In this document: positions 34-64,000 of the stretch, in pieces | Position numbering within the stretch: position 1 is the stretch's first letter | Layout of the letters: each line of letters begins with the position of its first letter | NCBI GenBank assembly: GCA_964505635.1 | Contig: CAZDIP010000001.1 | Coordinates: 116,386 to 180,385 of the forward strand | Direction: 5' to 3' | DNA length: 64,000 bases | DNA from: an uncultured Candidatus Saccharibacteria bacterium | Lineage (GTDB): Bacteria; Patescibacteriota; Doudnabacteria; UBA920 | The notes under the pieces: model-generated | Database searches by the model: none | Told to the model about the DNA's origin: nothing | Seen by the model: the letters and a program-made list of their open reading frames with translations, nothing else | Translations under genes and position numbers: made by a program

Positions 34-1432
34 CTATTTTATTGCCAATTCCTGGCCGTTGAAATGTTGTATAACTTTGTAAATTTTTTGTAAATAATTG
101 ACTGTTTCTTGCCTTAAGGCGGCTGGTTGTAAAGTATCCAGCTGAGAGTTTATGCCGGCTAATTCGGTTTGGGCTTTAGCAAGCTGGGATTTTAGGCTGT
201 TTTGAGTTTTTTTGTCAGGAGCCTTTTTAATTTTTGCTTTTAAATTTTTTATTTGCGTATTAGCTTTGTTGGCCTGGTCTTTTAGTATCGCAATTTGTCC
301 ATTACGATCTTCATTCCAGGTATCCCCAAAAGCATTGACCGCTCTGGCCACTCTGGTCGTTCCGCCATTGTAAGAAGCCGCGGCATAGTCAAAAACTCGG
401 CCAGAGGCAAAGCCGTAACTCGCCTTGATTCTCACCGCTCCCGCGTAGTCGTCCAGCAGTAAATACATGGCTTTTATAGCATTTCTGTGATCCGACATGC
501 CGTCTACAAAATTTGCTATTAAGTTTAAATCAGCATGTCTTTTAACCAGCGATTCGTAGGTGGAAGGAATAAATTGGGCTATTCCGCGTGCGCCGGCGGA
601 AGAAACGCTGTATTTATAGGTATCGCCTGTATTTAAAGCCAGTAAAATATTTAACTGGTTAATTGTGCCCTGGGCATTATTGTTAACTAGCACTTGCGCG
701 GTGTCTGTATGTTCGGCATAAACCAGTGCTTTTATTAAACTCGGTTTTATGGCTTCGGTGATGGTAAGTCCCGGCACTGCTTGGGAGGGAATATGGCTTA
801 AACTTTGGGCAACGTCTGAAATTACATTATTTAAGTAATTCGCGCCGTAATTTAAAACATCCGAAGAATTGAAATTTGGATTATAAGGCACATATAAAGC
901 ATCATAAATACCGGCTTCAATTTTTGCTTTGTTGCCGCTCTCCGGATTAGTAATTAAATATTTTATTGCAATGACTTGGGCGTTTTCAGGCTTTGTTACT
1001 GAAAACCGGCTATTTACTCCGTTAAACCTGACCAAGCTAACCTCTGTATCACTTTTGGGGAAAGTCATGGTCTTGCCGTTTTGTTTACCCACCACAATTT
1101 TTATGTTGTTAGTGTTGGGGTCTAATACTGCAACAGCAATATCCTTGCTGGTTAAATTGTAGGAAGAAATGGTCTTTGTTGTTTTACCGGTTTTTTTGTT
1201 CTTTACGTTTTTGTAAACCGGAGTTAAACTATAACTCAATTTTATCTGGCTTAATTTTGCTTTTGCTTCCGCAGCGGCGAGGATCAAAGAAGGTGCCGTG
1301 CTCGTGCTTTGCCCTAAAATTAAAGTCGGCGTTGTTGAAGCCTGAACCGAATTTGAAAAATTTATCAGGCCTAGGCCTGATAATAAAGTTGCGCACAAAA
1401 ATAAAAGACAATTTTTTGTTTGTAATTTCATG
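34..1432 (-). CDS. secreted lytic transglycosylase (SLT domain) with C-terminal coiled-coil region
   Basis: Signal-peptide-like N-terminus MKLQTKNCLLFLCATLLSG..VQA. SLT-type motif AEH ... SSAGARGIAQFIPSTYESL. The internal Met at 1432 is preferred over the track start at 1482. Confidence 0.6.
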
Positions 1433-4014: not shown

Positions 4015-5094
4015 ATGTTAATTGGCATAGAAGCAGAAAGGGCGAATAATCCGGAAAAGACCGGAGTGGAGCATTATGCCAAGCAGCTTATTCTGCATTT
4101 GGCAAAAATTGATTCTGTTAACGAATATGTACTATTCCTCCGGACTAAACCGGAGGAATGGTTTTTTAAGCTGCCAAAGAACTTTAAAGTAAAAATTATA
4201 CCGTTTCCAATTTTTTGGACGCAAATCCGTCTTTCTTTGGAAATGCTATTTAATCCGGTTGACGTGCTGTTCATTCCGGCTTCGGCTTTGCCGTTTATTC
4301 ATCCAAAATGCAGCATTGTAACAATTCACGATGTAGCTTGGAGGTATTTTCCAAAAAGTTTTACTTGGTTTATGCGCAATTTTTTGGAATGGTCAACAAA
4401 ATTTGCGATTAAGAATGCTTCAAATATTATTGCGGTTTCGGAAAGTACCAAGCGGGATTTGGTAAAATTTTATGGAGTGGGAGAAAAAAAGATCACAGTT
4501 ATTCATCATGGTTTTGAAAGCCCGAATGATCAAAAGCTACAAGCTACCAGCTACAAGCTACCAGCTAAGTATATTTTATTCCTTTCTACCATCCAACCAA
4601 GGAAAAATTTACAAGGGCTCATTGAAGCATTTAAGGATTTAAAAACTGAAAATCCAGAAATTTCTCATAAATTAGTTGTTGTGGGAAGGCCTGGATGGAA
4701 ATACCAGAAAATATTAAAATATATTGATAGTTATAAGGATATCGTTCTGTATTTAGGCCATGTTAGCGATAAAGAGCGATTTAGCATACTCTCAAAAGCG
4801 GATTTATTAGTTTTGCCTAGTTTCTACGAGGGTTTTGGCATGCAAATCTTAGAAGCGTTTGAAGCGGGCACGCCGGTTGCGACTTCCAATGTTTCCAGTA
4901 TGCCAGAAGTAGCCAAAGAAGCAGCGATTTATTTTAATCCTCACAACGCAGCAGAAATAAAAAATTCAATTAAGGCGGTATTGTTGGACAAATCACTGGC
5001 CGACCGCCTGAGACAAAAAGGCTGCGAAAGGCTTAAAGAATTTTCCTGGGAAAAGTGCGCCAGCCAGACTTTGGATTTAATTAAGAATTTTTAG
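4015..5094 (+). CDS. glycosyltransferase family 4 (GT-B fold)
   Basis: C-terminal LPSFYEGFGMQILEAFEAG (E-x7-E GT4 motif). Paralogous to the GT4 genes at 23801 and 24922. Confidence 0.7.
   Translation: MLIGIEAERANNPEKTGVEHYAKQLILHLAKIDSVNEYVLFLRTKPEEWFFKLPKNFKVKIIPFPIFWTQIRLSLEMLFNPVDVLFIPASALPFIHPKCSIVTIHDVAWRYFPKSFTWFMRNFLEWSTKFAIKNASNIIAVSESTKRDLVKFYGVGEKKITVIHHGFESPNDQKLQATSYKLPAKYILFLSTIQPRKNLQGLIEAFKDLKTENPEISHKLVVVGRPGWKYQKILKYIDSYKDIVLYLGHVSDKERFSILSKADLLVLPSFYEGFGMQILEAFEAGTPVATSNVSSMPEVAKEAAIYFNPHNAAEIKNSIKAVLLDKSLADRLRQKGCERLKEFSWEKCASQTLDLIKNF
4534..4569 (+). repeat. 14-bp tandem direct repeat (CAAGCTACCAGCTA x2 plus partial copy) inside the GT4 coding sequence
   Basis: Read directly: 4540..4553 and 4554..4567 are identical. 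The unit length is not a multiple of 3. Confidence 0.6.
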
Positions 5095-20783: not shown

Positions 20784-20792
20784 ATCAGCAAC

Positions 20793-20820
20793 AAAAAAAC
20801 CTTCTTTAAAGGTTTTTTTG
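20793..20820. terminator. bidirectional rho-independent terminator (A-tract, AACCTT-CTTTA-AAGGTT, T-tract)
   Basis: Symmetric hairpin with an A-run on one side and a T-run on the other. Serves the + SIMPL gene and the minus-strand rnpB 3' end. Confidence 0.6.
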
Positions 20821-20822
20821 TT

Positions 20823-21202
20823 GCTCTAAGCAAACTCATAAGCCGAATTCTGTTTACCCAAAATAAATTTTAGGTTTAATAATCATCTATCTGCCGTCGG
20901 TATTACTACCGAGGTCAAGCAGCCTACCAAATTTGGCCTTGCACTCAAGTAAGGATTTAGCCGTTTCACCTCAAATATTTCTATAAGAGATCGCCCTGTC
21001 ATTTTTGACAGGGCGTTTTATTTCTTTCGAAATAAAACGTTTCTGTTCGCACCTCGCGTTTTACAACGGACGGGTGTTACCCGCTACTCTTTTGATAACT
21101 CTATAGAGGTCATCAATAAGTGTTCGGACTTTCCTCCCCATTCATTGTTTGCAAAATTTTGCAGCTTCCAATCAATGGGCGATTATTCGGTTTGCTTAGA
21201 GC
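20823..21202 (-). ncRNA. rnpB: RNase P RNA (bacterial type A-like)
   Basis: On the minus strand: 13-bp P1 helix between 21190..21202 and 20823..20835. P4 5' strand GAGGAAAGUCCGAAC (rc of 21121..21137) and P4 3' strand ACAGAAUUCGGCUUAU (rc of 20839..20854). GGUAGGCUGCUUGA (P15-like, rc of 20905..20918). GGUGCG and a GAAA-tetraloop hairpin. Length is about 380 nt. Confidence 0.85.
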
Positions 21203-33133: not shown

Positions 33134-33946
33134 TTGATGGGGACAAGAAGCTCGCAAGAACTATACAGGCTTTGCAACCTCGTTTTTCCTGTCTCTGAAC
33201 TTTTGCCCGAAATCCCAGATTGGGTAAAACGGGCGATTGGCCAGAGATTGACACGCGATAAAATAACCCTGGTTTCGGCAGTTTGTCCTGACTACGAAAT
33301 CAAGAACGGTAAATTCACTTACAAGGCCATGGGTCGTGATGCGCCACACACAGCGCTTCAGCACCTCAAATTAATGAAGGGTGCATGTGACGCATTGGAA
33401 AGTTTGGGTGTAGAGGTGGATTACCAGATGACACTGGCCGATACGGAGCTTGACCTGCCTTTAGTGGTAAATAACCTCGCCGGAGGAAGCAAGGACATTT
33501 TTCTTGAGAAGTGCCAGGAAAGTTGCAGAGTTCTTGAGCGACAAGCCGAGAGACTCGGAGTTCGGCTGCTGGGATGCAGGCGCTTTACGGAAGCATTCAG
33601 CAACTGGTACTGTGTTTACGAACGTGCCCGGCAGGTCCTGGAGGCGGAGATGTCGAATTCCTGGGCGCTCAAGCACGAATTAAACATCAGTTCACAAAGC
33701 CGCCTGCCACTTTACAAAGCCATGGCCGGACAGCAGGTTGGCCTGGATTACTGCCGTGAAATGGTAGTGCGCCAGTGGGCGCAATACATGACTTGGGGTG
33801 AATGTGCCGAAGGTTTGTACGGGTCTGGTTTGGTAATGATTAACCATTCAACACCCAACTTGGGCAAGGTTAACTATCCCAAATTTCGGGCTGGGAAACA
33901 ACGAATACCCATTCTGAAACTCAACATCTCTACCATGCCCGAATAG
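33134..33946 (+). CDS. hypothetical protein encoded by a GC-rich (about 50 percent GC) island; family not recognised
   Basis: 270-aa ORF with a strong SD (TAGGAGG, 5 nt before ATG), its own terminator, and compositionally foreign codon usage (CTG, CGC, GCC rich). Nine Cys. No recognisable catalytic motif. Confidence 0.5.
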   Translation: MMGTRSSQELYRLCNLVFPVSELLPEIPDWVKRAIGQRLTRDKITLVSAVCPDYEIKNGKFTYKAMGRDAPHTALQHLKLMKGACDALESLGVEVDYQMTLADTELDLPLVVNNLAGGSKDIFLEKCQESCRVLERQAERLGVRLLGCRRFTEAFSNWYCVYERARQVLEAEMSNSWALKHELNISSQSRLPLYKAMAGQQVGLDYCREMVVRQWAQYMTWGECAEGLYGSGLVMINHSTPNLGKVNYPKFRAGKQRIPILKLNISTMPE

Positions 33947-46014: not shown

Positions 46015-46024
46015 CAAATTTTTT

Positions 46025-46052
46025 AAAAAGCCTCTTAATTAAGAGGCTTTTT
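46025..46052. terminator. perfect palindromic terminator AAAAAGCCTCTT-AATT-AAGAGGCTTTTT
   Basis: Read directly, after secF. Confidence 0.7.
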
Positions 46053-46068
46053 AAATTTATTAGTATAA

Positions 46069-48575: not shown

Positions 48576-50330
48576 ATGGATAACACCGAAAACAAAATTA
48601 CGGTTTTTGCTAAAACAAATTTCCGAAATAAGGAAGTCGCTTTTGGCATAAAAACGGACGATCGCCGCAGGCATATGTACCTGATTGGAAAAACCGGCAT
48701 GGGAAAAACAACCATGATGGAAAACATGGTTATTCAGGATATTCGCAATGGAAACGGGGTAGCCTTTTTAGATCCCCATGGGGATTCTATTCAAAGAATA
48801 CTAAATTCTATTCCTTCCAGCCGAGTTAATGATGTCATCCACTTTAATCCCGCTGATCTGGAATATCCAGTCGCTTTTAACATCTTAGAAGCGGTTGATG
48901 CAAAATATAAGCACTTAGTTGCTAGTGGATTAATGGGTGTGTTTACAAAAATTTGGGCGAATTTGTGGTCAGCAAGAATGGAATATATCTTAAATAATAC
49001 CATCCTAGCTCTTTTAGACAGTCCTGGTAACACGCTTTTAGGTATTACACGCATGTATGTGGATAAAAAATATCGGAAGCGAATTGTTGATAATATTAAA
49101 GACCCGATGGTTAAAGCCTTTTGGGTGGACGAATTTGCCAATTATAACGAAAAGTATAGAACCGAAGCAATTGCCCCGATCCAAAATAAAGTTGGACAAT
49201 TTTTGTCTTCCGGAATCATCAGAAATATTGTTGGCCAGCCTAAAAGTACCATAGATTTAAGGGAAATCATGGACAAAAGAAAAATATTGATTATGGATTT
49301 ATCCAAAGGAAAAGTAGGCGAAGATAATTCTGCTCTATTGGGTGCGATGATAGTAACAAAGCTGCAGTTGGCCGCTATGTCCAGAACCGACATACCCGAA
49401 CACGAAAGGAAAGATTTCTATCTTTATGTGGATGAGTTTCAAAATTTTGCCACCGAAAGCTTTGCGACAATTTTAAGCGAGGCCAGGAAGTATAGATTAA
49501 ACTTGATTGTCGGGCACCAATATATTGCTCAGCTTGAACAAGATAAAAATACTAAGGTTAGGGACGCGATTTTTGGCAACGTTGGATCAATAGTACTTTT
49601 TCGCATAGGAGCAGCTGATGCGGAATTTTTAGAAACTGAGTTTGATCCCATTTTTACGCCAAATGATATGGTTAACCTGCCTAAATACCAGATTATTTTA
49701 AAGCTAATGATTAACGGCGTAGCCAGCGAGCCTTTTTCTGCAATTACTTTACCCCCTAGTCCCGATTATTACACAGGTAATATGGAAAAGGTCATAAAAG
49801 TTTCAAGGGAACGATACTCGAATTCAGTGACAGAAGTTGAAGAAAAAATATCCCGGTGGATGGGGGCTGAATTCCACCAGGAAACCGCGGTGTTGGTTGG
49901 CGATGTTTTGGTATCTCAAAAAACGGGGCAAGATAATCAAACTAAAATTCCCGAGTTTGAAAAGGAAGCTTCCGATGCTGATGACAAAAATTCCAAAGAA
50001 CCAAAAAGAAACGAGGTATTAAAATCTGAGAAAAAACCCCAAAATCCCGTCCAGCACCTAATTCAGGATGAAAAAGATAAAATTAAAAAATCAAAGCATT
50101 CAGTTAGTAAAATAGGACGGGTGAAAAAAGAGAATCCAATTTGGAATACCGTAGCGCAAATTAATCATACAAAAATTAAAGAAATTTTTGAAAAAAAAAT
50201 TCCTGAAAATAATGCACAAACTTCAGTTGTTAACGACAATAAAAAAAATTCAGGCGCTTCGGAAATAAAATTAGGATCTAGCAACCAGCCAACAGTTTTA
50301 GAACCCGGTAAAACTCATCTTATTAACTAA
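48576..50330 (+). CDS. soluble TraG/VirD4/TraD-like (type IV coupling protein family) P-loop ATPase
   Basis: Walker A IGKTGMGKTT. Walker B YLYVDEFQNF followed by ARKYRLNLIVGHQ (TraG-D_C-like). No TM helices. Lys/Glu-rich C-terminal tail. Confidence 0.55.
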   Translation: MDNTENKITVFAKTNFRNKEVAFGIKTDDRRRHMYLIGKTGMGKTTMMENMVIQDIRNGNGVAFLDPHGDSIQRILNSIPSSRVNDVIHFNPADLEYPVAFNILEAVDAKYKHLVASGLMGVFTKIWANLWSARMEYILNNTILALLDSPGNTLLGITRMYVDKKYRKRIVDNIKDPMVKAFWVDEFANYNEKYRTEAIAPIQNKVGQFLSSGIIRNIVGQPKSTIDLREIMDKRKILIMDLSKGKVGEDNSALLGAMIVTKLQLAAMSRTDIPEHERKDFYLYVDEFQNFATESFATILSEARKYRLNLIVGHQYIAQLEQDKNTKVRDAIFGNVGSIVLFRIGAADAEFLETEFDPIFTPNDMVNLPKYQIILKLMINGVASEPFSAITLPPSPDYYTGNMEKVIKVSRERYSNSVTEVEEKISRWMGAEFHQETAVLVGDVLVSQKTGQDNQTKIPEFEKEASDADDKNSKEPKRNEVLKSEKKPQNPVQHLIQDEKDKIKKSKHSVSKIGRVKKENPIWNTVAQINHTKIKEIFEKKIPENNAQTSVVNDNKKNSGASEIKLGSSNQPTVLEPGKTHLIN

Positions 50331-50358
50331 AATTCCCCCGCCTAGGCGGGGGAATTTT
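50331..50358. terminator. perfect palindrome AATTCCCCCGCC-TAG-GCGGGGGAATT, bidirectional terminator
   Basis: Read directly between the convergent ATPase gene (+) and trxA (-). Confidence 0.7.
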
Positions 50359-50360
50359 AG

Positions 50361-50681
50361 TTAAAGATACTTGTCTATTTCTGTTTTAAGTATTTCCTTT
50401 GGAGCAGCTCCGACAATTTCCCCAACAACCTTTCCTGCTTTAAAAATTTTTAAAGTTGGGATACTCATTACCCCATATTGTGAAGCTAAGGCATTGTTTT
50501 CATCTACATTTACCTTACCTATTTTTAACTTTCCCTGGTAATCTTGAGACAATTCTTCAACAATCGGTCCAATAATTTTACATGGACCGCACCAAACTGC
50601 CCAAAAATCCACCAATACCGGCACTTGGGAGTCTAAAACTTCATTTTTAAAATTAGATTCGCTTAATTTAATTGTTGGCAT
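50361..50681 (-). CDS. trxA: thioredoxin
   Basis: VDFWAVWCGPCK active site. Confidence 0.85.
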   Translation of the reverse strand: MPTIKLSESNFKNEVLDSQVPVLVDFWAVWCGPCKIIGPIVEELSQDYQGKLKIGKVNVDENNALASQYGVMSIPTLKIFKAGKVVGEIVGAAPKEILKTEIDKYL

Positions 50682-60704: not shown

Positions 60705-62501
60705 ATGACGCAGCAAAAAATTAGAAATTTTTGCATAATTGCCCATATTGACCACGGAAAAAGCACCTTGGCCGACAGGCTTTTGGAAATTACGCATACC
60801 GTACAAAAACGGCAGATGAAAGAACAGCTCCTAGACCAAATGGATTTGGAACGAGAGCGGGGAATTACCATAAAACTACAGCCGGTTAGAATGAACTATG
60901 TCTTGGACGACAACAGCGAATACATTCTAAACCTTATAGATACGCCGGGGCACGTTGATTTTACCTACGAGGTTTCGCGTTCGCTGGCCTGCTGTGAAGG
61001 CGCCATTTTGGTTGTTGACTCTACCCAGGGTATTGAAGCTCAAACATTGGCTAATGTATATCTGGCGCTTGAACACGACCTAACCATAATCCCGGTGGTA
61101 AATAAGATTGATTTGCCAAATTCGGACCGGCAAAAAACCGCGGAAGAACTAAAAAGCGCTTTCGGTTTTACGGACGAAGAAATTTTATATGCCAGCGGCA
61201 AAACCGGCGAAGGCGTTGAAGAAATAATAAAAGAAGTTATAAAACGGGTGCCGCCGCCAAAAGGCGACCCTGCCAAGCCGGTCACTGCTTTAATCTTTGA
61301 TTCAATTTATGACATCCATCGCGGGGTGGTGGCTTATGTAAGAGTTTTTGACGGTGAAATTTTTCCGCGTGAAAAAATTTATATGTTAGCCAGCCAGGCT
61401 CAGGGTGAAAGTTTAGAAGTGGGTTACTTTAAACCAAAAATGGAAAAATCGGCTGAAATTTTAACCGGCGAGGTGGGTTATATTGTTACGGGCTTAAGAG
61501 ATGTAAGCAAAGCCAGGGTAGGAGACACTATAACGCTTTTTGAAGGAAGGCAAACAGCAGCCGCCTTGCCGGGATATAAACAAATTAAACCCATGGTTTA
61601 CGCTACTATTTTTCCGGTTTCCGGCGATGACTACCCTGTCTTGCGCGATGCCATGGACAAGCTAAAGCTGAGCGACGCGGCATTGGAGTACGAACCCATA
61701 AACATCCCCAGCATCGGTTTTGGGTTTAGAACCGGCTTTTTGGGACTTTTGCATATGGACATAGTCCAGGAACGCTTAAGCCGGGAATATAATTTAGATC
61801 TGGTTTTAACCGCCCCTTCCGTAGCTTATCGCGTGGTAAAAACCGACAATACTGAAATGGTAATCCATAACCCGGCTGAACTGCCCGACCCGAGCGTAAT
61901 AAAAGAAATGTATGAACCCTGGATGCTGGTGAATATTTTAACGCCCACGGACTACATAGGTTCCATAATGGAAATAGCCACGCAAAGAAGAGCTATAAGC
62001 AAAGATATAAAATATATTTCCAAAGACAGGGTAGATATGTCTTTTGAGATGCCTTTGGCCAATATAATTTTAGATTTTTACGACAAGCTAAAATCTGTAT
62101 CTTCGGGCTACGCCAGCTTAAACTATGACTTCATACAAGAGCGCGTAGGGGATTTGGCCAAGGTGGATATTTTAGTGGCCGGAGAAAAAGTAGACGCCCT
62201 CTCCGCCATAATGCACCGCTCTTTTGCGGCAGAAGAAGGCAAAGAACTGGTGGCCAAACTTAAAGAATTAATCCCAAGACACCAGTTTGAAATCGCGCTT
62301 CAGGCAGCCATAGGAGGAAAAGTTATTGCCCGCGAAACCATTTCTGCCTTGCGCAAAGACGTGACCGGGTATTTGTATGGCGGTGACGTAACTAGAAAAA
62401 TGAAACTTTTAAATAAACAAAAAAAGGGTAAAAAAAGGATGAAAAAGATTGGGAAGGTAGATATTCCCCAAGAAGCCTTTTTGGCAGTGTTAAAAAAATA
62501 A
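60705..62501 (+). CDS. lepA: elongation factor 4 (LepA)
   Basis: IRNFCIIAHIDHGKSTLADRLLE, DTPGHVDF, NKIDLP. Confidence 0.9.
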   Translation: MTQQKIRNFCIIAHIDHGKSTLADRLLEITHTVQKRQMKEQLLDQMDLERERGITIKLQPVRMNYVLDDNSEYILNLIDTPGHVDFTYEVSRSLACCEGAILVVDSTQGIEAQTLANVYLALEHDLTIIPVVNKIDLPNSDRQKTAEELKSAFGFTDEEILYASGKTGEGVEEIIKEVIKRVPPPKGDPAKPVTALIFDSIYDIHRGVVAYVRVFDGEIFPREKIYMLASQAQGESLEVGYFKPKMEKSAEILTGEVGYIVTGLRDVSKARVGDTITLFEGRQTAAALPGYKQIKPMVYATIFPVSGDDYPVLRDAMDKLKLSDAALEYEPINIPSIGFGFRTGFLGLLHMDIVQERLSREYNLDLVLTAPSVAYRVVKTDNTEMVIHNPAELPDPSVIKEMYEPWMLVNILTPTDYIGSIMEIATQRRAISKDIKYISKDRVDMSFEMPLANIILDFYDKLKSVSSGYASLNYDFIQERVGDLAKVDILVAGEKVDALSAIMHRSFAAEEGKELVAKLKELIPRHQFEIALQAAIGGKVIARETISALRKDVTGYLYGGDVTRKMKLLNKQKKGKKRMKKIGKVDIPQEAFLAVLKK

Positions 62502-62550
62502 CGTCAGCCGTGTAACTTTAAATAAAAGTAATTATATAGAAGCTTTTCTA

Positions 62551-62583
62551 AAAAAATCACGGCCACCGAAAACTCAGTGGCCG
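62551..62583 (-). terminator. rho-independent terminator (CGGCCAC-N10-GTGGCCG then U-tract on minus strand)
   Basis: Read directly. It lies 3' of the minus-strand gene 62609..62896. Confidence 0.55.
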
Positions 62584-62608
62584 CAATGTCGCATACCTGG
62601 GCAGTGTG

Positions 62609-62896
62609 CTAGCTCACAAAATCCCGAGCGAAGATCGCCTGATGCTTAGGTGTCTGCAAATCCTCGCTGAACAACTTGAACTGATCTTCTCCCAACAGGC
62701 GAAGCACTTCGCCGGAGGTTATTTTTGTGGTTTTTACGAGCCCTTCAAGGTCTTCTTTGGGGTCACAATCTCCCGACCCCGATAGAGCCAGGCTGTCCAC
62801 CTGCGCGAGTACCTCGCACATTGGGATCATGGGGTCGTCCCCATAGAGTTCGGGGTGATCTTTAAAAAACTGACTCAGATTTTCCAGGTAAACCAT
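62609..62896 (-). CDS. small hypothetical protein (95 aa) encoded in a GC-rich island
   Basis: Strong SD (AAGGAGAGGG) 5 nt upstream of ATG. Starts MVYLENLSQFFKDHPELYGDDP. Composition is clearly more GC-rich than its flanks. No recognised family. The track start at 62929 is rejected. Confidence 0.45.
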   Translation of the reverse strand: MVYLENLSQFFKDHPELYGDDPMIPMCEVLAQVDSLALSGSGDCDPKEDLEGLVKTTKITSGEVLRLLGEDQFKLFSEDLQTPKHQAIFARDFVS

Positions 62897-62983
62897 GCAT
62901 GCCCTCTCCTTTTTTTTGACTGAAAACAAGTTAGATTAGCATAACACCAGTTATTTGGCAATATTTAAAATTTTAAATTTCCC

Positions 62984-63019
62984 TGTTTTTAAAGGCTCAC
63001 TACGTGTGAGCCTTTAAAA
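62984..63019. other. perfect 10-bp-stem hairpin AAAGGCTCAC-TACGT-GTGAGCCTTT flanked by T- and A-runs within a divergent intergenic region
   Basis: Read directly. Terminator-like, but located between divergently transcribed genes. Confidence 0.4.
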
Positions 63020-63115
63020 TTAACTATATTTAAGCCATATTATTTTCTATGACCCTAAAACATTTTTTGAGTCTATATCTTTACACAATATATTTATAGC
63101 AAGGAGCATGTCATT

Positions 63116-63167
63116 GCGAGCCATAGCGAAGCAATCCAATTAATCTAAGTTCTGCGAGCATCCAATT
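63116..63167 (+). promoter_or_regulatory. direct repeats GCGAGC(+12-nt insert)ATCCAATT and GCGAGCATCCAATT overlapping the -35 region of a TATAAT (63174..63179)
   Basis: Read directly. A candidate regulator-binding site for the + gene at 63273. Confidence 0.35.
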
Positions 63168-63272
63168 TTTTGCTATAATCAAAGCACAAATTTTATTACA
63201 TAAAAAAACCGAAATTATGCACCTATAAACTTATTTCAAAAGCAACATTAATAATCAACTAATATAAACTAA

Positions 63273-63884
63273 ATGGATTACAAACCAATTCTGGCAACAG
63301 TTGCAATTATCATAGGCTTCTTTTCTTACTTTATATACTTTAAAGGAATCTTTTATGGGCAAACCAAGCCTCATGTTTTTAGCTGGCTGGTTTGGGGCAT
63401 AATAAATTCAACCGCGTTTTTTGCTCAACTCGTAAAGGGGGCGGGCGCCGGAGCCTGGATTACGGCAGCCAACGCGTCTTTGTGCCTCGCCGTGGCCTGC
63501 GTGGCTTTGTTCAAGGGAGAAAAAAATATAACTTTTACCGACAAAGTTGCATTTTTTGCAGCTCTTGCCGGGATACTGGCTTGGGCATTGACCAAAAACC
63601 CTCTGACTGCCGTTGTTATTGCCTGCGTTGTGGACATTTTTGCCATATACCCAACTTTCCGAAAATCTTACTTTAAACCCTTTGAAGAAAACGCTCTATC
63701 CTTCAGTATTGACCTTATAAGATTTTTCCTGCAGCTTTTTGCTTTTGAAAGCTTTAATTTAACAACAGCCTTGTTTCCCATAACTATTTTGGTTAATGAC
63801 ACTTCACTGGTAACTATGATTCTAATAAGGCGGGCTATTTTAAAAAATAAAAATTTTAAAAATAAACAAGAGCCCGCGACATAA
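63273..63884 (+). CDS. hypothetical polytopic membrane protein
   Basis: Hydrophobic ORF with a Gly/Ala-rich helix (VKGAGAGAWITAANASLCLAVACVALF). No SD. Divergent from the GC-rich small gene. Confidence 0.4.
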   Translation: MDYKPILATVAIIIGFFSYFIYFKGIFYGQTKPHVFSWLVWGIINSTAFFAQLVKGAGAGAWITAANASLCLAVACVALFKGEKNITFTDKVAFFAALAGILAWALTKNPLTAVVIACVVDIFAIYPTFRKSYFKPFEENALSFSIDLIRFFLQLFAFESFNLTTALFPITILVNDTSLVTMILIRRAILKNKNFKNKQEPAT

Positions 63885-64000
63885 GTAGCGGGCTCAGCGG
63901 AAACTGACAACCTAAAGTGGGCTTAGTAGCCGTCTCCCGGTATTTTGTAACCCCTACTTATTTTTGCAAGAGTTAAAAGGTTGCGGGTGCAGCTTTCTAG

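What the first reader, a model, noticed from the sequence alone, without database searches (positions are those of the whole stretch)
62551..63884. Second GC-rich island: a 95-aa gene divergent from a membrane-protein gene, with repeat-decorated shared control region
Gene 62609..62896 (minus strand) is markedly GC-rich, has a strong SD and its own terminator, and encodes an unrecognised acidic protein (MVYLENLSQFFKDHPELYGDDP...). It is divergently paired with a polytopic membrane protein (63273..63884). The 376-bp intergenic region contains a perfect 10-bp-stem hairpin (62991..63015) and two GCGAGC..ATCCAATT direct repeats abutting a TATAAT. The layout resembles a small regulator or immunity gene plus a membrane effector, or a two-gene toxin or transport module. 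Both islands share a foreign-looking codon bias, so they may have a common donor.
Basis: partly seen in the sequence, partly recalled or inferred. Interest (0 to 1): 0.65.

Follow-up and report, generated by a model that had tools for sequence, protein, structure and literature searches.

The report
Orphan GC-rich small gene, unrelated neighbour
A tiny, probably horizontally acquired gene of unknown function happens to sit beside an ordinary, widespread seven-helix membrane transporter-like gene. The two are not a functional pair, so the finding is mostly ordinary.

Summary
The "island", however, is only the 95-aa gene (62609..62896, minus strand). That gene has 50.7% GC and GC3 0.60, against a window mean of 37.6% GC and GC3 0.355 (z +4.7). 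It is really protein-coding (dN/dS 0.27). It belongs to a family of only five proteins among about 15 billion searched.

In every member it is a self-contained unit with its own promoter-like site, strong Shine-Dalgarno (SD) sequence and terminator, and the neighbours differ between genomes. It is absent downstream of lepA in 80 other lepA loci. It and the other GC-rich gene (33137..33946) are the only genes in the window with a strong SD.

The membrane gene (63273..63884) has host-like composition (40% GC, GC3 0.40). It belongs to an unnamed family found in at least 589 species genomes from the Candidate Phyla Radiation (CPR), DPANN archaea and predatory bacteria. Its confident model is a 7-helix fold resembling PQ-loop, SWEET and KDEL-receptor proteins.

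None of 80 loci carrying the membrane gene holds a homologue of the small gene, so the "two-gene module" reading fails. The hairpin in the intergenic region has the architecture of this genome's gene-end terminators. The function of the small protein remains unknown.

The parts
62556..62587 (-). Intrinsic terminator of the small gene (14-bp stem, 4-nt loop, run of seven T). It lies between the convergent lepA and small-gene stop codons.
   Evidence: -22.2 kcal/mol, z -3.9. The stem core GCGGCCACTG is conserved in L001 at 983..1007.
62609..62896 (-). Small gene encoding a 95-aa acidic protein (pI 4.3) predicted to be all-helical. It has 50.7% GC and GC3 0.60, and its family has only five known members.
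   Evidence: Coding is supported by substitutions per codon position of 9/10/22 and dN/dS 0.27 against L001.
62902..62909 (-). Strong Shine-Dalgarno sequence (GGAGAGGG preceded by an A-run), 5 nt before the ATG.
   Evidence: Read from the sequence. An SD is present in all five family members. Strong SDs at gene starts occur only here and at 33137 in the window.
62933..62961 (-). Putative promoter of the small gene: -35 TTGCCA (62956..62961), a 17-nt spacer, then TGc-TAATCT (62933..62941).
   Evidence: Read from the sequence and conserved in L001 (TTGCCA-16-TATCCT with TG). The window copy falls below the scan tool's threshold, so this is an inference.
62987..63019 (.). Perfect 14-bp palindromic hairpin (TTTTAAAGGCTCAC-TACGT-GTGAGCCTTTAAAA). 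It has the same A-tract/GC-core/T-tract architecture as this genome's gene-end terminators.
   Evidence: Compare 20787..20825, 46022..46055 and 50323..50364, which directly follow stop codons. It is absent from L001.
63110..63137 (+). One copy of a GTCATTGCGAG...GAAGCAATCC element. It contains the first GCGAGC..ATCCAATT copy (63116..63141).
   Evidence: Two inverted copies of the same element type occur in L005.
63154..63167 (+). Second, shorter repeat copy (GCGAGCATCCAATT), lying over the -35/spacer zone of the TGcTATAAT box.
   Evidence: It matches the second half of copy 1 with two single-A deletions (read from the sequence).
63171..63179 (+). Extended -10 box TGcTATAAT, 94 nt upstream of the membrane gene's ATG. 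The resulting leader would be unstructured.
   Evidence: Read from the sequence. Leader fold z +0.58. No Rfam match.
63260..63265 (+). Alternative -10-like box TAATAT, 7 nt before the ATG. It would give a leaderless mRNA, the arrangement suggested for many genes in this window.
   Evidence: Read from the sequence. Across the window, TATAAT boxes lie 6-24 nt before start codons. This is an inference.
63273..63884 (+). Gene for a 203-aa, 7-helix membrane protein of an unnamed, widespread family. The fold resembles PQ-loop, SWEET and KDEL-receptor proteins. Composition is host-like.
   Evidence: (pLDDT 94.8).
63870..63895 (+). Hairpin overlapping the membrane gene's stop codon. It is terminator-like but lacks a T-run.
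   Evidence: -18.7 kcal/mol, z -5.5.

Best explanation
Two unrelated genes lie back to back.

(1) The small gene. The segment at about 62551..62965 (minus strand) is a self-contained single-gene unit: a sigma-70-type promoter, a leader of about 30 nt with a strong SD, a 95-codon ORF and an intrinsic terminator. It encodes a small, acidic, probably all-helical cytoplasmic protein. Two conserved segments (residues 1-33 and 57-93) are joined by a variable acidic linker. An invariant D13-H14-x-E16 ... H85 set of residues is present.

The unit was most likely acquired horizontally from a donor with about 50% GC that uses SD sequences. The recipient would be the common ancestor of this genome and its close relative L001. 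It has since been kept under purifying selection.

Function is not shown. My best guess is a stand-alone binding or inhibitor-type protein, such as an orphan immunity or anti-defence factor, possibly metal-binding. I do not think it regulates the neighbouring gene.

(2) The membrane gene. The gene at 63273..63884 is a resident gene with host composition. It encodes a 7-TM protein with a 3+1+3 PQ-loop/SWEET-like fold. It is probably a small-solute transporter, typical of host-dependent CPR and DPANN organisms and of predatory bacteria.

(3) The intergenic region. The 376-bp AT-rich region is a patchwork rather than a shared operator region. It holds the small gene's promoter, a terminator-type palindrome (possibly lepA's former terminator or the end of a small transcript), one copy of a GTCATTGCGAG..GAAGCAATCC element also seen in a related locus (L005), and the promoter or promoters of the membrane gene.
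For: The small gene is coding:
- Between the window and L001, third codon positions carry 22 of 41 differences, and dN/dS is 0.27.
- The antisense ORF has most of its differences at its own first codon position, so it is not coding (plus coordinate arithmetic).
- There is no Rfam match.

The family is rare:
- Only five proteins were found by three searches of 5.8 billion clusters and 1.84 billion representatives.
- Nothing was found in phage, plasmid, viral-contig, species-genome or metagenome scans.

The unit is self-contained:
- All five members have an SD and a terminator, and three of the four homologues have a promoter-like site by the scan tool (L001, L003, L004). In the window the promoter is inferred only from its similarity to L001's, and the scan found none in L002.
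- Neighbours differ. They are lepA in the window and L001; glpX and transketolase in L002; and a 633-aa secreted-type protein in L003 and L004.

The small gene looks foreign:
- GC3 z is +4.7.
- The gene's GC of about 50% equals the host GC in L002-L004 but exceeds it by 10-13 points in the window and L001.
- A strong SD occurs at only 2 gene starts in 64 kb, both on GC-rich genes.
- The gene is absent downstream of lepA in 80 other lepA loci, including relatives with 77-86% identical LepA C-termini.

The membrane gene is resident and widespread:
- GC3 z is +0.9.
- At least 589 species genomes carry a relative.
- The AF2 model has pLDDT 94.8.
- The top Foldseek PDB hits are cystinosin, the KDEL receptor and AtSWEET13, with TM-scores of 0.40-0.58 normalised to the query.
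- There is a weak internal TM1/TM5 repeat.

The two genes are not paired:
- Small-gene homologues occur in 0 of 80 membrane-gene loci.
- No conserved neighbour exists.

The hairpin matches terminator architecture elsewhere in the window.
Against: - No mobility gene, target-site duplication or empty-site sequence marks an insertion, so horizontal transfer is inferred only from composition, SD use and patchy distribution.
- The copies in the AT-rich hosts have the highest GC3 of the family (0.60-0.63 against 0.48-0.58). Their dS between the window and L001 (0.40) is lower than that of the adjacent lepA fragment (0.77). Both facts would also fit selection on synonymous sites in a native, highly expressed gene.
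- The protein's function is a guess. The AF2 model is unusable (pLDDT 52.8) and its fold search found nothing.
- Promoters are consensus matches only. Transcription units were not measured, so co-regulation through the shared intergenic region cannot be strictly excluded.
- Foldseek E-values for the membrane protein are weak (best 0.023), and no Pfam PQ-loop or MtN3 model matches.
Confidence: 0.6

Rival explanations
1. One reading: the small protein and the membrane protein form a two-gene module (regulator or immunity protein plus membrane effector, or a toxin or transport pair) controlled from the repeat-decorated shared intergenic region.
For: - The genes are divergent, with a long 376-bp intergenic region in a compact genome.
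- A palindrome and two direct repeats lie near an extended -10 box.
Against: - Adjacency is not conserved: 0 of 4 small-gene homologues and 0 of 80 membrane-gene loci show it.
- The two genes differ in composition and in SD use.
- The closest relative, L001, has a different gene in the divergent position.
- There are no hits to defence, toxin-antitoxin or immunity families.
- The palindrome resembles terminators rather than an operator.
Confidence: 0.05
2. The small gene is native to the lineage and was not transferred. Its GC-rich codons and strong SD are kept by selection, for example for high or specially regulated translation in a genome that otherwise initiates translation without an SD.
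For: - The SD is conserved in all five members, even where neighbouring genes lack one (L001, L003).
- GC3 is highest in the AT-rich hosts.
- dS is lower than in the adjacent lepA (0.40 against 0.77).
- The position next to lepA is shared with L001.
Against: - The distribution is extremely patchy, with five proteins among 15 billion.
- The gene is absent at the lepA locus in all 80 other lepA loci examined.
- Other conserved, presumably well-expressed genes in the window reach a GC3 of only about 0.46 (lepA, secA).
Confidence: 0.2
3. The GC-rich segment is a structured non-coding RNA, or carries an antisense gene, and the 95-codon ORF is incidental.
For: - GC-rich patches in AT-rich genomes are often RNA genes.
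- The mRNA folds somewhat better than shuffles (z -2.2, terminator included).
- A 59-75-codon antisense ORF is open in both the window and L001.
Against: - No Rfam match was found at E <= 1.
- The substitution pattern follows the sense frame, 9/10/22.
- Length differences among the five proteins fall in one linker region as in-frame indels, and the N-terminal MV[YF]L[DE]N follows a conserved SD.
- Differences in the antisense ORF peak at its first codon position.
Confidence: 0.03

Closest known systems
Laterally acquired ORFan genes and 'moron'-type cassettes (an autonomous promoter-gene-terminator unit whose composition differs from its surroundings, first described in lambdoid prophages)
   Same: It is a single small gene with its own promoter-like site, SD and terminator. 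Its base composition and translation-initiation signal differ from the flanking genes. Its distribution is patchy and its neighbours differ between genomes.
   Different: It is not in a prophage or on a plasmid, and no phage, plasmid or viral-contig homologue exists. It sits between housekeeping genes (lepA and a transporter-like gene). No mobility signature was found.
PQ-loop / SWEET / KDEL-receptor 7-TM proteins (such as cystinosin and AtSWEET13; Pfam PF04193, PF03083)
   Same: The protein has seven helices with a 3+1+3 layout, and these proteins are the top structural matches. Conserved proline-containing motifs lie at the ends of TM1 and TM5 and align weakly with each other. The size is about 200 aa.
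   Different: No sequence-profile match to PQ-loop or MtN3 models was found. The PQ dipeptide is replaced by P-Y-F...TKPH and P-T-F-R-K...KP-x-E-E. TM-scores are only 0.40-0.58. The substrate is unknown.
Small acidic inhibitor or immunity proteins (barstar, colicin immunity proteins)
   Same: It is about 90-100 aa, acidic and stand-alone, and it has a short P-E-x-Y-G-[DE] motif reminiscent of barstar's PEYYGEN.
   Different: Profile comparison with barstar aligns only 11 residues at probability 1.8%. There is no Pfam Barstar or Colicin_Pyocin hit. No cognate toxin gene lies nearby in any of the five loci.

Membership tests
Two-gene toxin-antitoxin / immunity-effector / regulator-target module | The two genes are adjacent in many genomes | tested here: not met
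   0 of 4 small-gene homologues lie next to a membrane-gene homologue. 0 of 80 membrane-gene loci hold a small-gene homologue.
Two-gene toxin-antitoxin / immunity-effector / regulator-target module | At least one partner matches a known toxin, antitoxin, immunity or defence family | tested here: not met
   Pfam, NCBIfam, PHROGs, PADLOC and PDB sequence searches gave nothing significant.
Two-gene toxin-antitoxin / immunity-effector / regulator-target module | Co-regulation or physical interaction of the two products | not testable with these tools
   This needs RNA-seq, TSS mapping or interaction assays.
Horizontally acquired gene islet (ORFan or moron-like cassette) | Composition and codon usage deviate from the host | tested here: met
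   GC is 50.7% against 37.6%. GC3 is 0.604 against 0.355 +/- 0.053.
Horizontally acquired gene islet (ORFan or moron-like cassette) | Patchy distribution, with absence from the same locus in relatives | tested here: met
   Five family members in total. It is absent from 80 other lepA loci and present only in L001 at this site.
Horizontally acquired gene islet (ORFan or moron-like cassette) | Own promoter and terminator | tested here: met
   Terminators are present in 5 of 5 members. Promoter-like sites are found in L001, L003 and L004 and, by homology, in the window. These are consensus matches only.
Horizontally acquired gene islet (ORFan or moron-like cassette) | Mobility signature (integrase or transposase, att sites or target-site duplication, or prophage context) | tested here: not met
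   None appears in the ORF list or repeat scan. There are no phage, plasmid or viral homologues.
PQ-loop / SWEET-type 7-TM transporters | Seven TM helices in a 3+1+3 fold similar to solved members | tested here: met
   The AF2 model has pLDDT 94.8 with seven helices. The top Foldseek PDB hits are cystinosin, the KDEL receptor and AtSWEET13, with TM-scores up to 0.58 but a best E-value of only 0.023.
PQ-loop / SWEET-type 7-TM transporters | Match to Pfam PQ-loop (PF04193) or MtN3_slv (PF03083), with a PQ motif | tested here: not met
   Neither model matched the window protein at E <= 1, and neither appears among the 25 best-represented of the 49 families that hit the 64 family members; the remaining 24 families were not listed. 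The motifs are P-Y-F..TKPH and P-T-F-R-K.
PQ-loop / SWEET-type 7-TM transporters | Internal duplication of a three-helix bundle | tested here: inconclusive
   hhalign of the N-terminal half against the C-terminal half aligns the ends of TM1 and TM5 at E 0.006 but probability only 6%.
PQ-loop / SWEET-type 7-TM transporters | Solute transport activity | not testable with these tools
   This needs uptake assays.
Barstar-like RNase inhibitors | Profile-level similarity over the domain | tested here: not met
   hhalign gives probability 1.8% over 11 aligned residues.
Known structured RNA families (Rfam 15) | Covariance-model match | tested here: not met
   Only two chance-level hits were found in 62400..64000 at E <= 1.

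The most novel reading that the evidence does not exclude
The small gene defines a new family of autonomous cassettes that depend on an SD for translation and persist in CPR genomes that otherwise start translation without an SD. The conserved SD, the high GC3 and the reduced synonymous divergence would then reflect a special translational or RNA-level control, or a selfish or anti-defence role. The protein would have an invariant D-H-x-E...H site. The second GC-rich, SD-led gene at 33137..33946 would belong to the same imported class.
Probability: 0.12. Interest if true: 0.6.

Novelty: new member of a known kind. Interest (0 to 1): 0.3.

Why it matters
As a claimed two-gene system it does not hold up, so little follows from it.

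Three modest points remain:
- A very rare protein family (five sequences) is real, is under purifying selection, and always travels as a complete transcription unit.
- In this CPR-like genome the only genes with a strong SD are the two GC-rich ones. This gives a simple extra marker for foreign or specially translated genes in SD-poor lineages.
- The neighbouring 7-TM protein belongs to a large family with no Pfam or NCBIfam match here. Among the labelled genomes returned, CPR, DPANN and predatory-bacterium MAGs are prominent. It would be a reasonable candidate for a scavenging transporter in host-dependent microbes.

Tried and rejected
- **Structure of the small protein.** The AF2 model was built on a five-sequence alignment and reached only pLDDT 52.8. 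Foldseek against the PDB returned four chance hits. This line is unusable.
- **Sequence and profile searches for the small protein.** Pfam, NCBIfam, PHROGs, PADLOC and PDB gave nothing significant.
- **P0125.** This 1267-aa tandem-repeat protein hit the small protein at E 5.6e-6, but only on a 23-residue stretch of a repeated unit. I judged it spurious.
- **Acyl-carrier-protein idea.** The D34-S35-L36 motif is not conserved in the homologues and there is no PP-binding hit. Rejected.
- **Barstar idea.** Rejected.
- **Helix-turn-helix reading of the C-terminal SGEVxRxLGEE segment.** There is no Pfam support, and the residue after the Gly is acidic rather than hydrophobic. Not pursued.
- **Antisense ORF (62606..62785 +).** Rejected from the codon-position pattern.
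- **Riboswitch in the membrane gene's leader.** Rejected: fold z +0.58 and no Rfam hit.
- **Target-site duplication.** The 3' end of lepA (62478..62495) resembles 62952..62969 at 78% identity (family D2). The sequence is AT-rich, the match is not mirrored in L001, and it is probably chance.
- **Scans for more small-gene loci.** Genome, metagenome and viral contig scans found none.
- **Exact look-ups of the window's own proteins.** None was on record, so the region beyond base 64000 and the organism's name were not obtained.
- **Literature.** Searches for the repeat element and for PQ-loop proteins in Patescibacteria found nothing relevant.
Full report
**Observation.** All listed features are present at the stated coordinates.

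- The minus-strand ORF at 62609..62896 encodes the quoted 95-aa protein.
- Its GC is 50.7% against 37.6% for the window. Its GC3 is 0.604 against 0.355 +/- 0.053 for 53 window genes (z +4.7). Only 0.6% of 95-codon windows from those genes reach that GC3.
- It has an SD (GGAGAGGG, 62902..62909).
- It has a canonical terminator at 62556..62587.
- The intergenic region is 376 bp at 29% GC.
- The hairpin is real and longer than described: a perfect 14-bp stem at 62987..63019.
- The two GCGAGC..ATCCAATT copies (63116..63141, 63154..63167) and the TGcTATAAT box (63171..63179) are there.

One part fails. The membrane gene is not GC-rich: it has 40.2% GC and GC3 0.402, z +0.9. The GC-rich island is therefore about 380 bp and holds one gene.

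**The small gene is a real protein-coding gene.** The nearest homologue (P0002, 82% identity, locus L001) differs at 9, 10 and 22 sites in codon positions 1, 2 and 3. dN/dS is 0.27. An antisense ORF is open in both genomes, but its differences peak at its own first codon position, so it is not coding. Rfam gives nothing.

**The family is tiny.** A word-indexed search of 5.8 billion clusters, a full HMMER pass over 1.84 billion representatives and a profile search together found five proteins of 87-98 aa. No relatives turned up in species genomes, JGI metagenome contigs, viral contigs, phages or plasmids.

The alignment shows two conserved blocks: MV[YF]L[DE]N..FF.DH.E..G..P and SGEV...LG...F..F..DL..P.H..I..R. 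They are joined by a variable acidic linker that carries in-frame indels. The proteins are acidic, with pI 4.3-5.6. No family library or PDB sequence matches. The AF2 model is poor (pLDDT 52.8) and its fold search is empty.

**Every family member is a stand-alone unit.** All five have an SD (AGGAGG-like) and an intrinsic terminator. L001, L003 and L004 have promoter-like sites by the scan tool. The window copy shares L001's TTGCCA-16/17-TGcTA..CT arrangement.

Neighbours differ between genomes:
- In the window and L001 the gene is convergent with lepA.
- In L001 the divergent neighbour is a different gene, not the membrane gene.
- In L002 it lies alone on its strand between glpX and transketolase.
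- In L003 and L004 it follows a 633-aa secreted-type protein, and L003 has an extra 23S_rRNA_IVP gene inserted there.

**Foreignness.**

- The gene's GC of about 50% matches the host contigs in L002-L004 (46-50%) but exceeds them in the window (37.5%) and L001 (41%).
- Among 80 further lepA loci from metagenomes, none has the small gene downstream. These include relatives with 77-86% identical LepA C-termini.
- Independently, the host barely uses SD sequences. Only 5 of 54 gene starts have any SD-like tetramer. The only strong SDs at true gene starts belong to this gene and to the other GC-rich gene at 33137..33946.
- Many host genes instead have a TATAAT box 6-24 nt before the start codon, which implies leaderless or very short-leader mRNAs.

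A common donor cannot be shown. The codon-usage fit to island 1 is a GC3 effect. Island 1 has no homologue in any fetched locus, and its protein is also unrecognised.

Two facts keep the native-gene rival alive:
- The SD is conserved even in SD-poor hosts.
- dS between the window and L001 is lower for the small gene (0.40) than for the adjacent lepA fragment (0.77).

**The membrane gene.** Its family has 130 hits in the word-indexed protein search and relatives in at least 589 species-representative genomes. These include Doudnabacteria and Magasanikbacteria (65-68% identity), many other CPR groups, DPANN archaea, Micavibrio, Bdellovibrionales and others.

No Pfam or NCBIfam model matches the window protein, and across the 64 aligned members Pfam gave only scattered weak hits to unrelated models. 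With a 64-sequence alignment, AF2 gives pLDDT 94.8 and seven helices. The best PDB matches are cystinosin, the KDEL receptor and AtSWEET13, with TM-scores of 0.40-0.58 and weak E-values. The conserved motifs at the ends of TM1 (PYF..G.TKPH) and TM5 (PTFRKSY.KP.EE) align weakly with each other. I read it as a PQ-loop/SWEET-like 3+1+3 transporter. It resembles that kind in fold but is not a demonstrable member by sequence.

**Pairing test.** A profile of the small protein finds no ORF in any of the 80 membrane-gene loci. Clustering all flanking ORFs shows no recurrent neighbour of the membrane gene; the best is 7 of 80 loci. In the closest relatives the membrane gene directly follows other genes, without the long AT-rich spacer or the repeats. 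The module hypothesis is therefore not supported.

**Intergenic features.** The 14-bp palindrome has the same A-tract/GC-core/T-tract design as the palindromes that immediately follow stop codons at 20787, 46022 and 50323. It is absent from L001. I take it to be a terminator. It may be lepA's former terminator, now separated from lepA by the inserted cassette. Alternatively it may be the end of a short minus-strand transcript starting near 63080, where a promoter-like site (ATGACA-16-TATATT) scores 10 of 12. Both readings are inferences.

The first repeat copy is part of a GTCATTGCGAG..GAAGCAATCC element. Two inverted copies of this element type occur in a related contig (L005). The second copy is a shortened version lying over the -35 zone of the TGcTATAAT box. 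Whether the repeats bind a regulator cannot be tested here. The 94-nt leader that this box would produce is unstructured. A TAATAT box 7 nt before the ATG offers a leaderless alternative that fits the pattern across the window.

**Verdict.** The interpretation as a module is not supported, while the foreign look of the small gene is supported. The item is a new member of a familiar kind: a laterally acquired ORFan cassette lying next to an unrelated resident gene. Interest is low to moderate.

Noticed in passing
whole window (gene starts listed): Host genes almost never have a Shine-Dalgarno sequence: 5 of 54 have any SD-like tetramer. Many first genes of operons have a perfect TATAAT 6-24 nt before the ATG, which suggests leaderless or very short-leader mRNAs. 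The only strong SDs at gene starts belong to the two GC-rich genes.
   Followed up: partly
window 33137..33946 (+): This is the other GC-rich gene (269 aa, GC3 0.55, SD AGGAGG 4 nt before the ATG). It has no Pfam, NCBIfam or PDB match and no homologue in any fetched locus.
   Followed up: partly
window 63110..63137; L005 2017..2110: A GTCATTGCGAG...GAAGCAATCC element occurs once in the window. In L005 two copies lie in inverted orientation and form a large hairpin. On the opposite strand it reads ..DCFAMARND.., a peptide-like motif I recall (from memory only) from many spurious ORFs in environmental genomes. It is probably a widespread intergenic repeat.
   Followed up: partly
window 20787..20825, 46022..46055, 50323..50364: Long perfect palindromes (15-19 bp stems; A-tract, GC core, T-tract) lie right after stop codons. 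They appear to be this genome's usual bidirectional terminators.
   Followed up: no
window 62609..62896 vs L001 671..964; lepA 3' end vs L001 1046..1507: Synonymous divergence of the small gene (dS 0.40) is about half that of the adjacent lepA fragment (0.77). This is unexplained. It could reflect synonymous-site constraint, a later exchange between the lineages, or small-sample noise.
   Followed up: no
window 63273..63884; loci L005-L084: The 7-TM family has no Pfam or NCBIfam model. It occurs in at least 589 species genomes, and CPR bacteria, DPANN archaea, Micavibrio and Bdellovibrionales are prominent among the labelled genomes returned, that is, host-dependent or predatory organisms (enrichment was not tested). 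Invariant residues are Y22, P33, G58, G60, D90, K131, P136 and E139.
   Followed up: partly
window 63114..62985 (-): A promoter-like site (ATGACA-16-TATATT, 10 of 12 matches) points towards the 14-bp palindrome. It could give a transcript of about 100 nt with two hairpins (fold z -5.9). This is a candidate small RNA with no Rfam match.
   Followed up: partly
L003 4102..4815 vs L004: A 23S_rRNA_IVP-family gene is inserted between the 633-aa gene and the small gene in L003 but is absent at the same place in the related L004.
   Followed up: no
L091 about 4600..4720: In this lepA relative a stop codon is followed about 60 nt later by a second stretch encoding the usual LepA C-terminal peptide (..IPQEAFLAVLKK). 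This may be a frameshift, an assembly error or a duplicated end.
   Followed up: no
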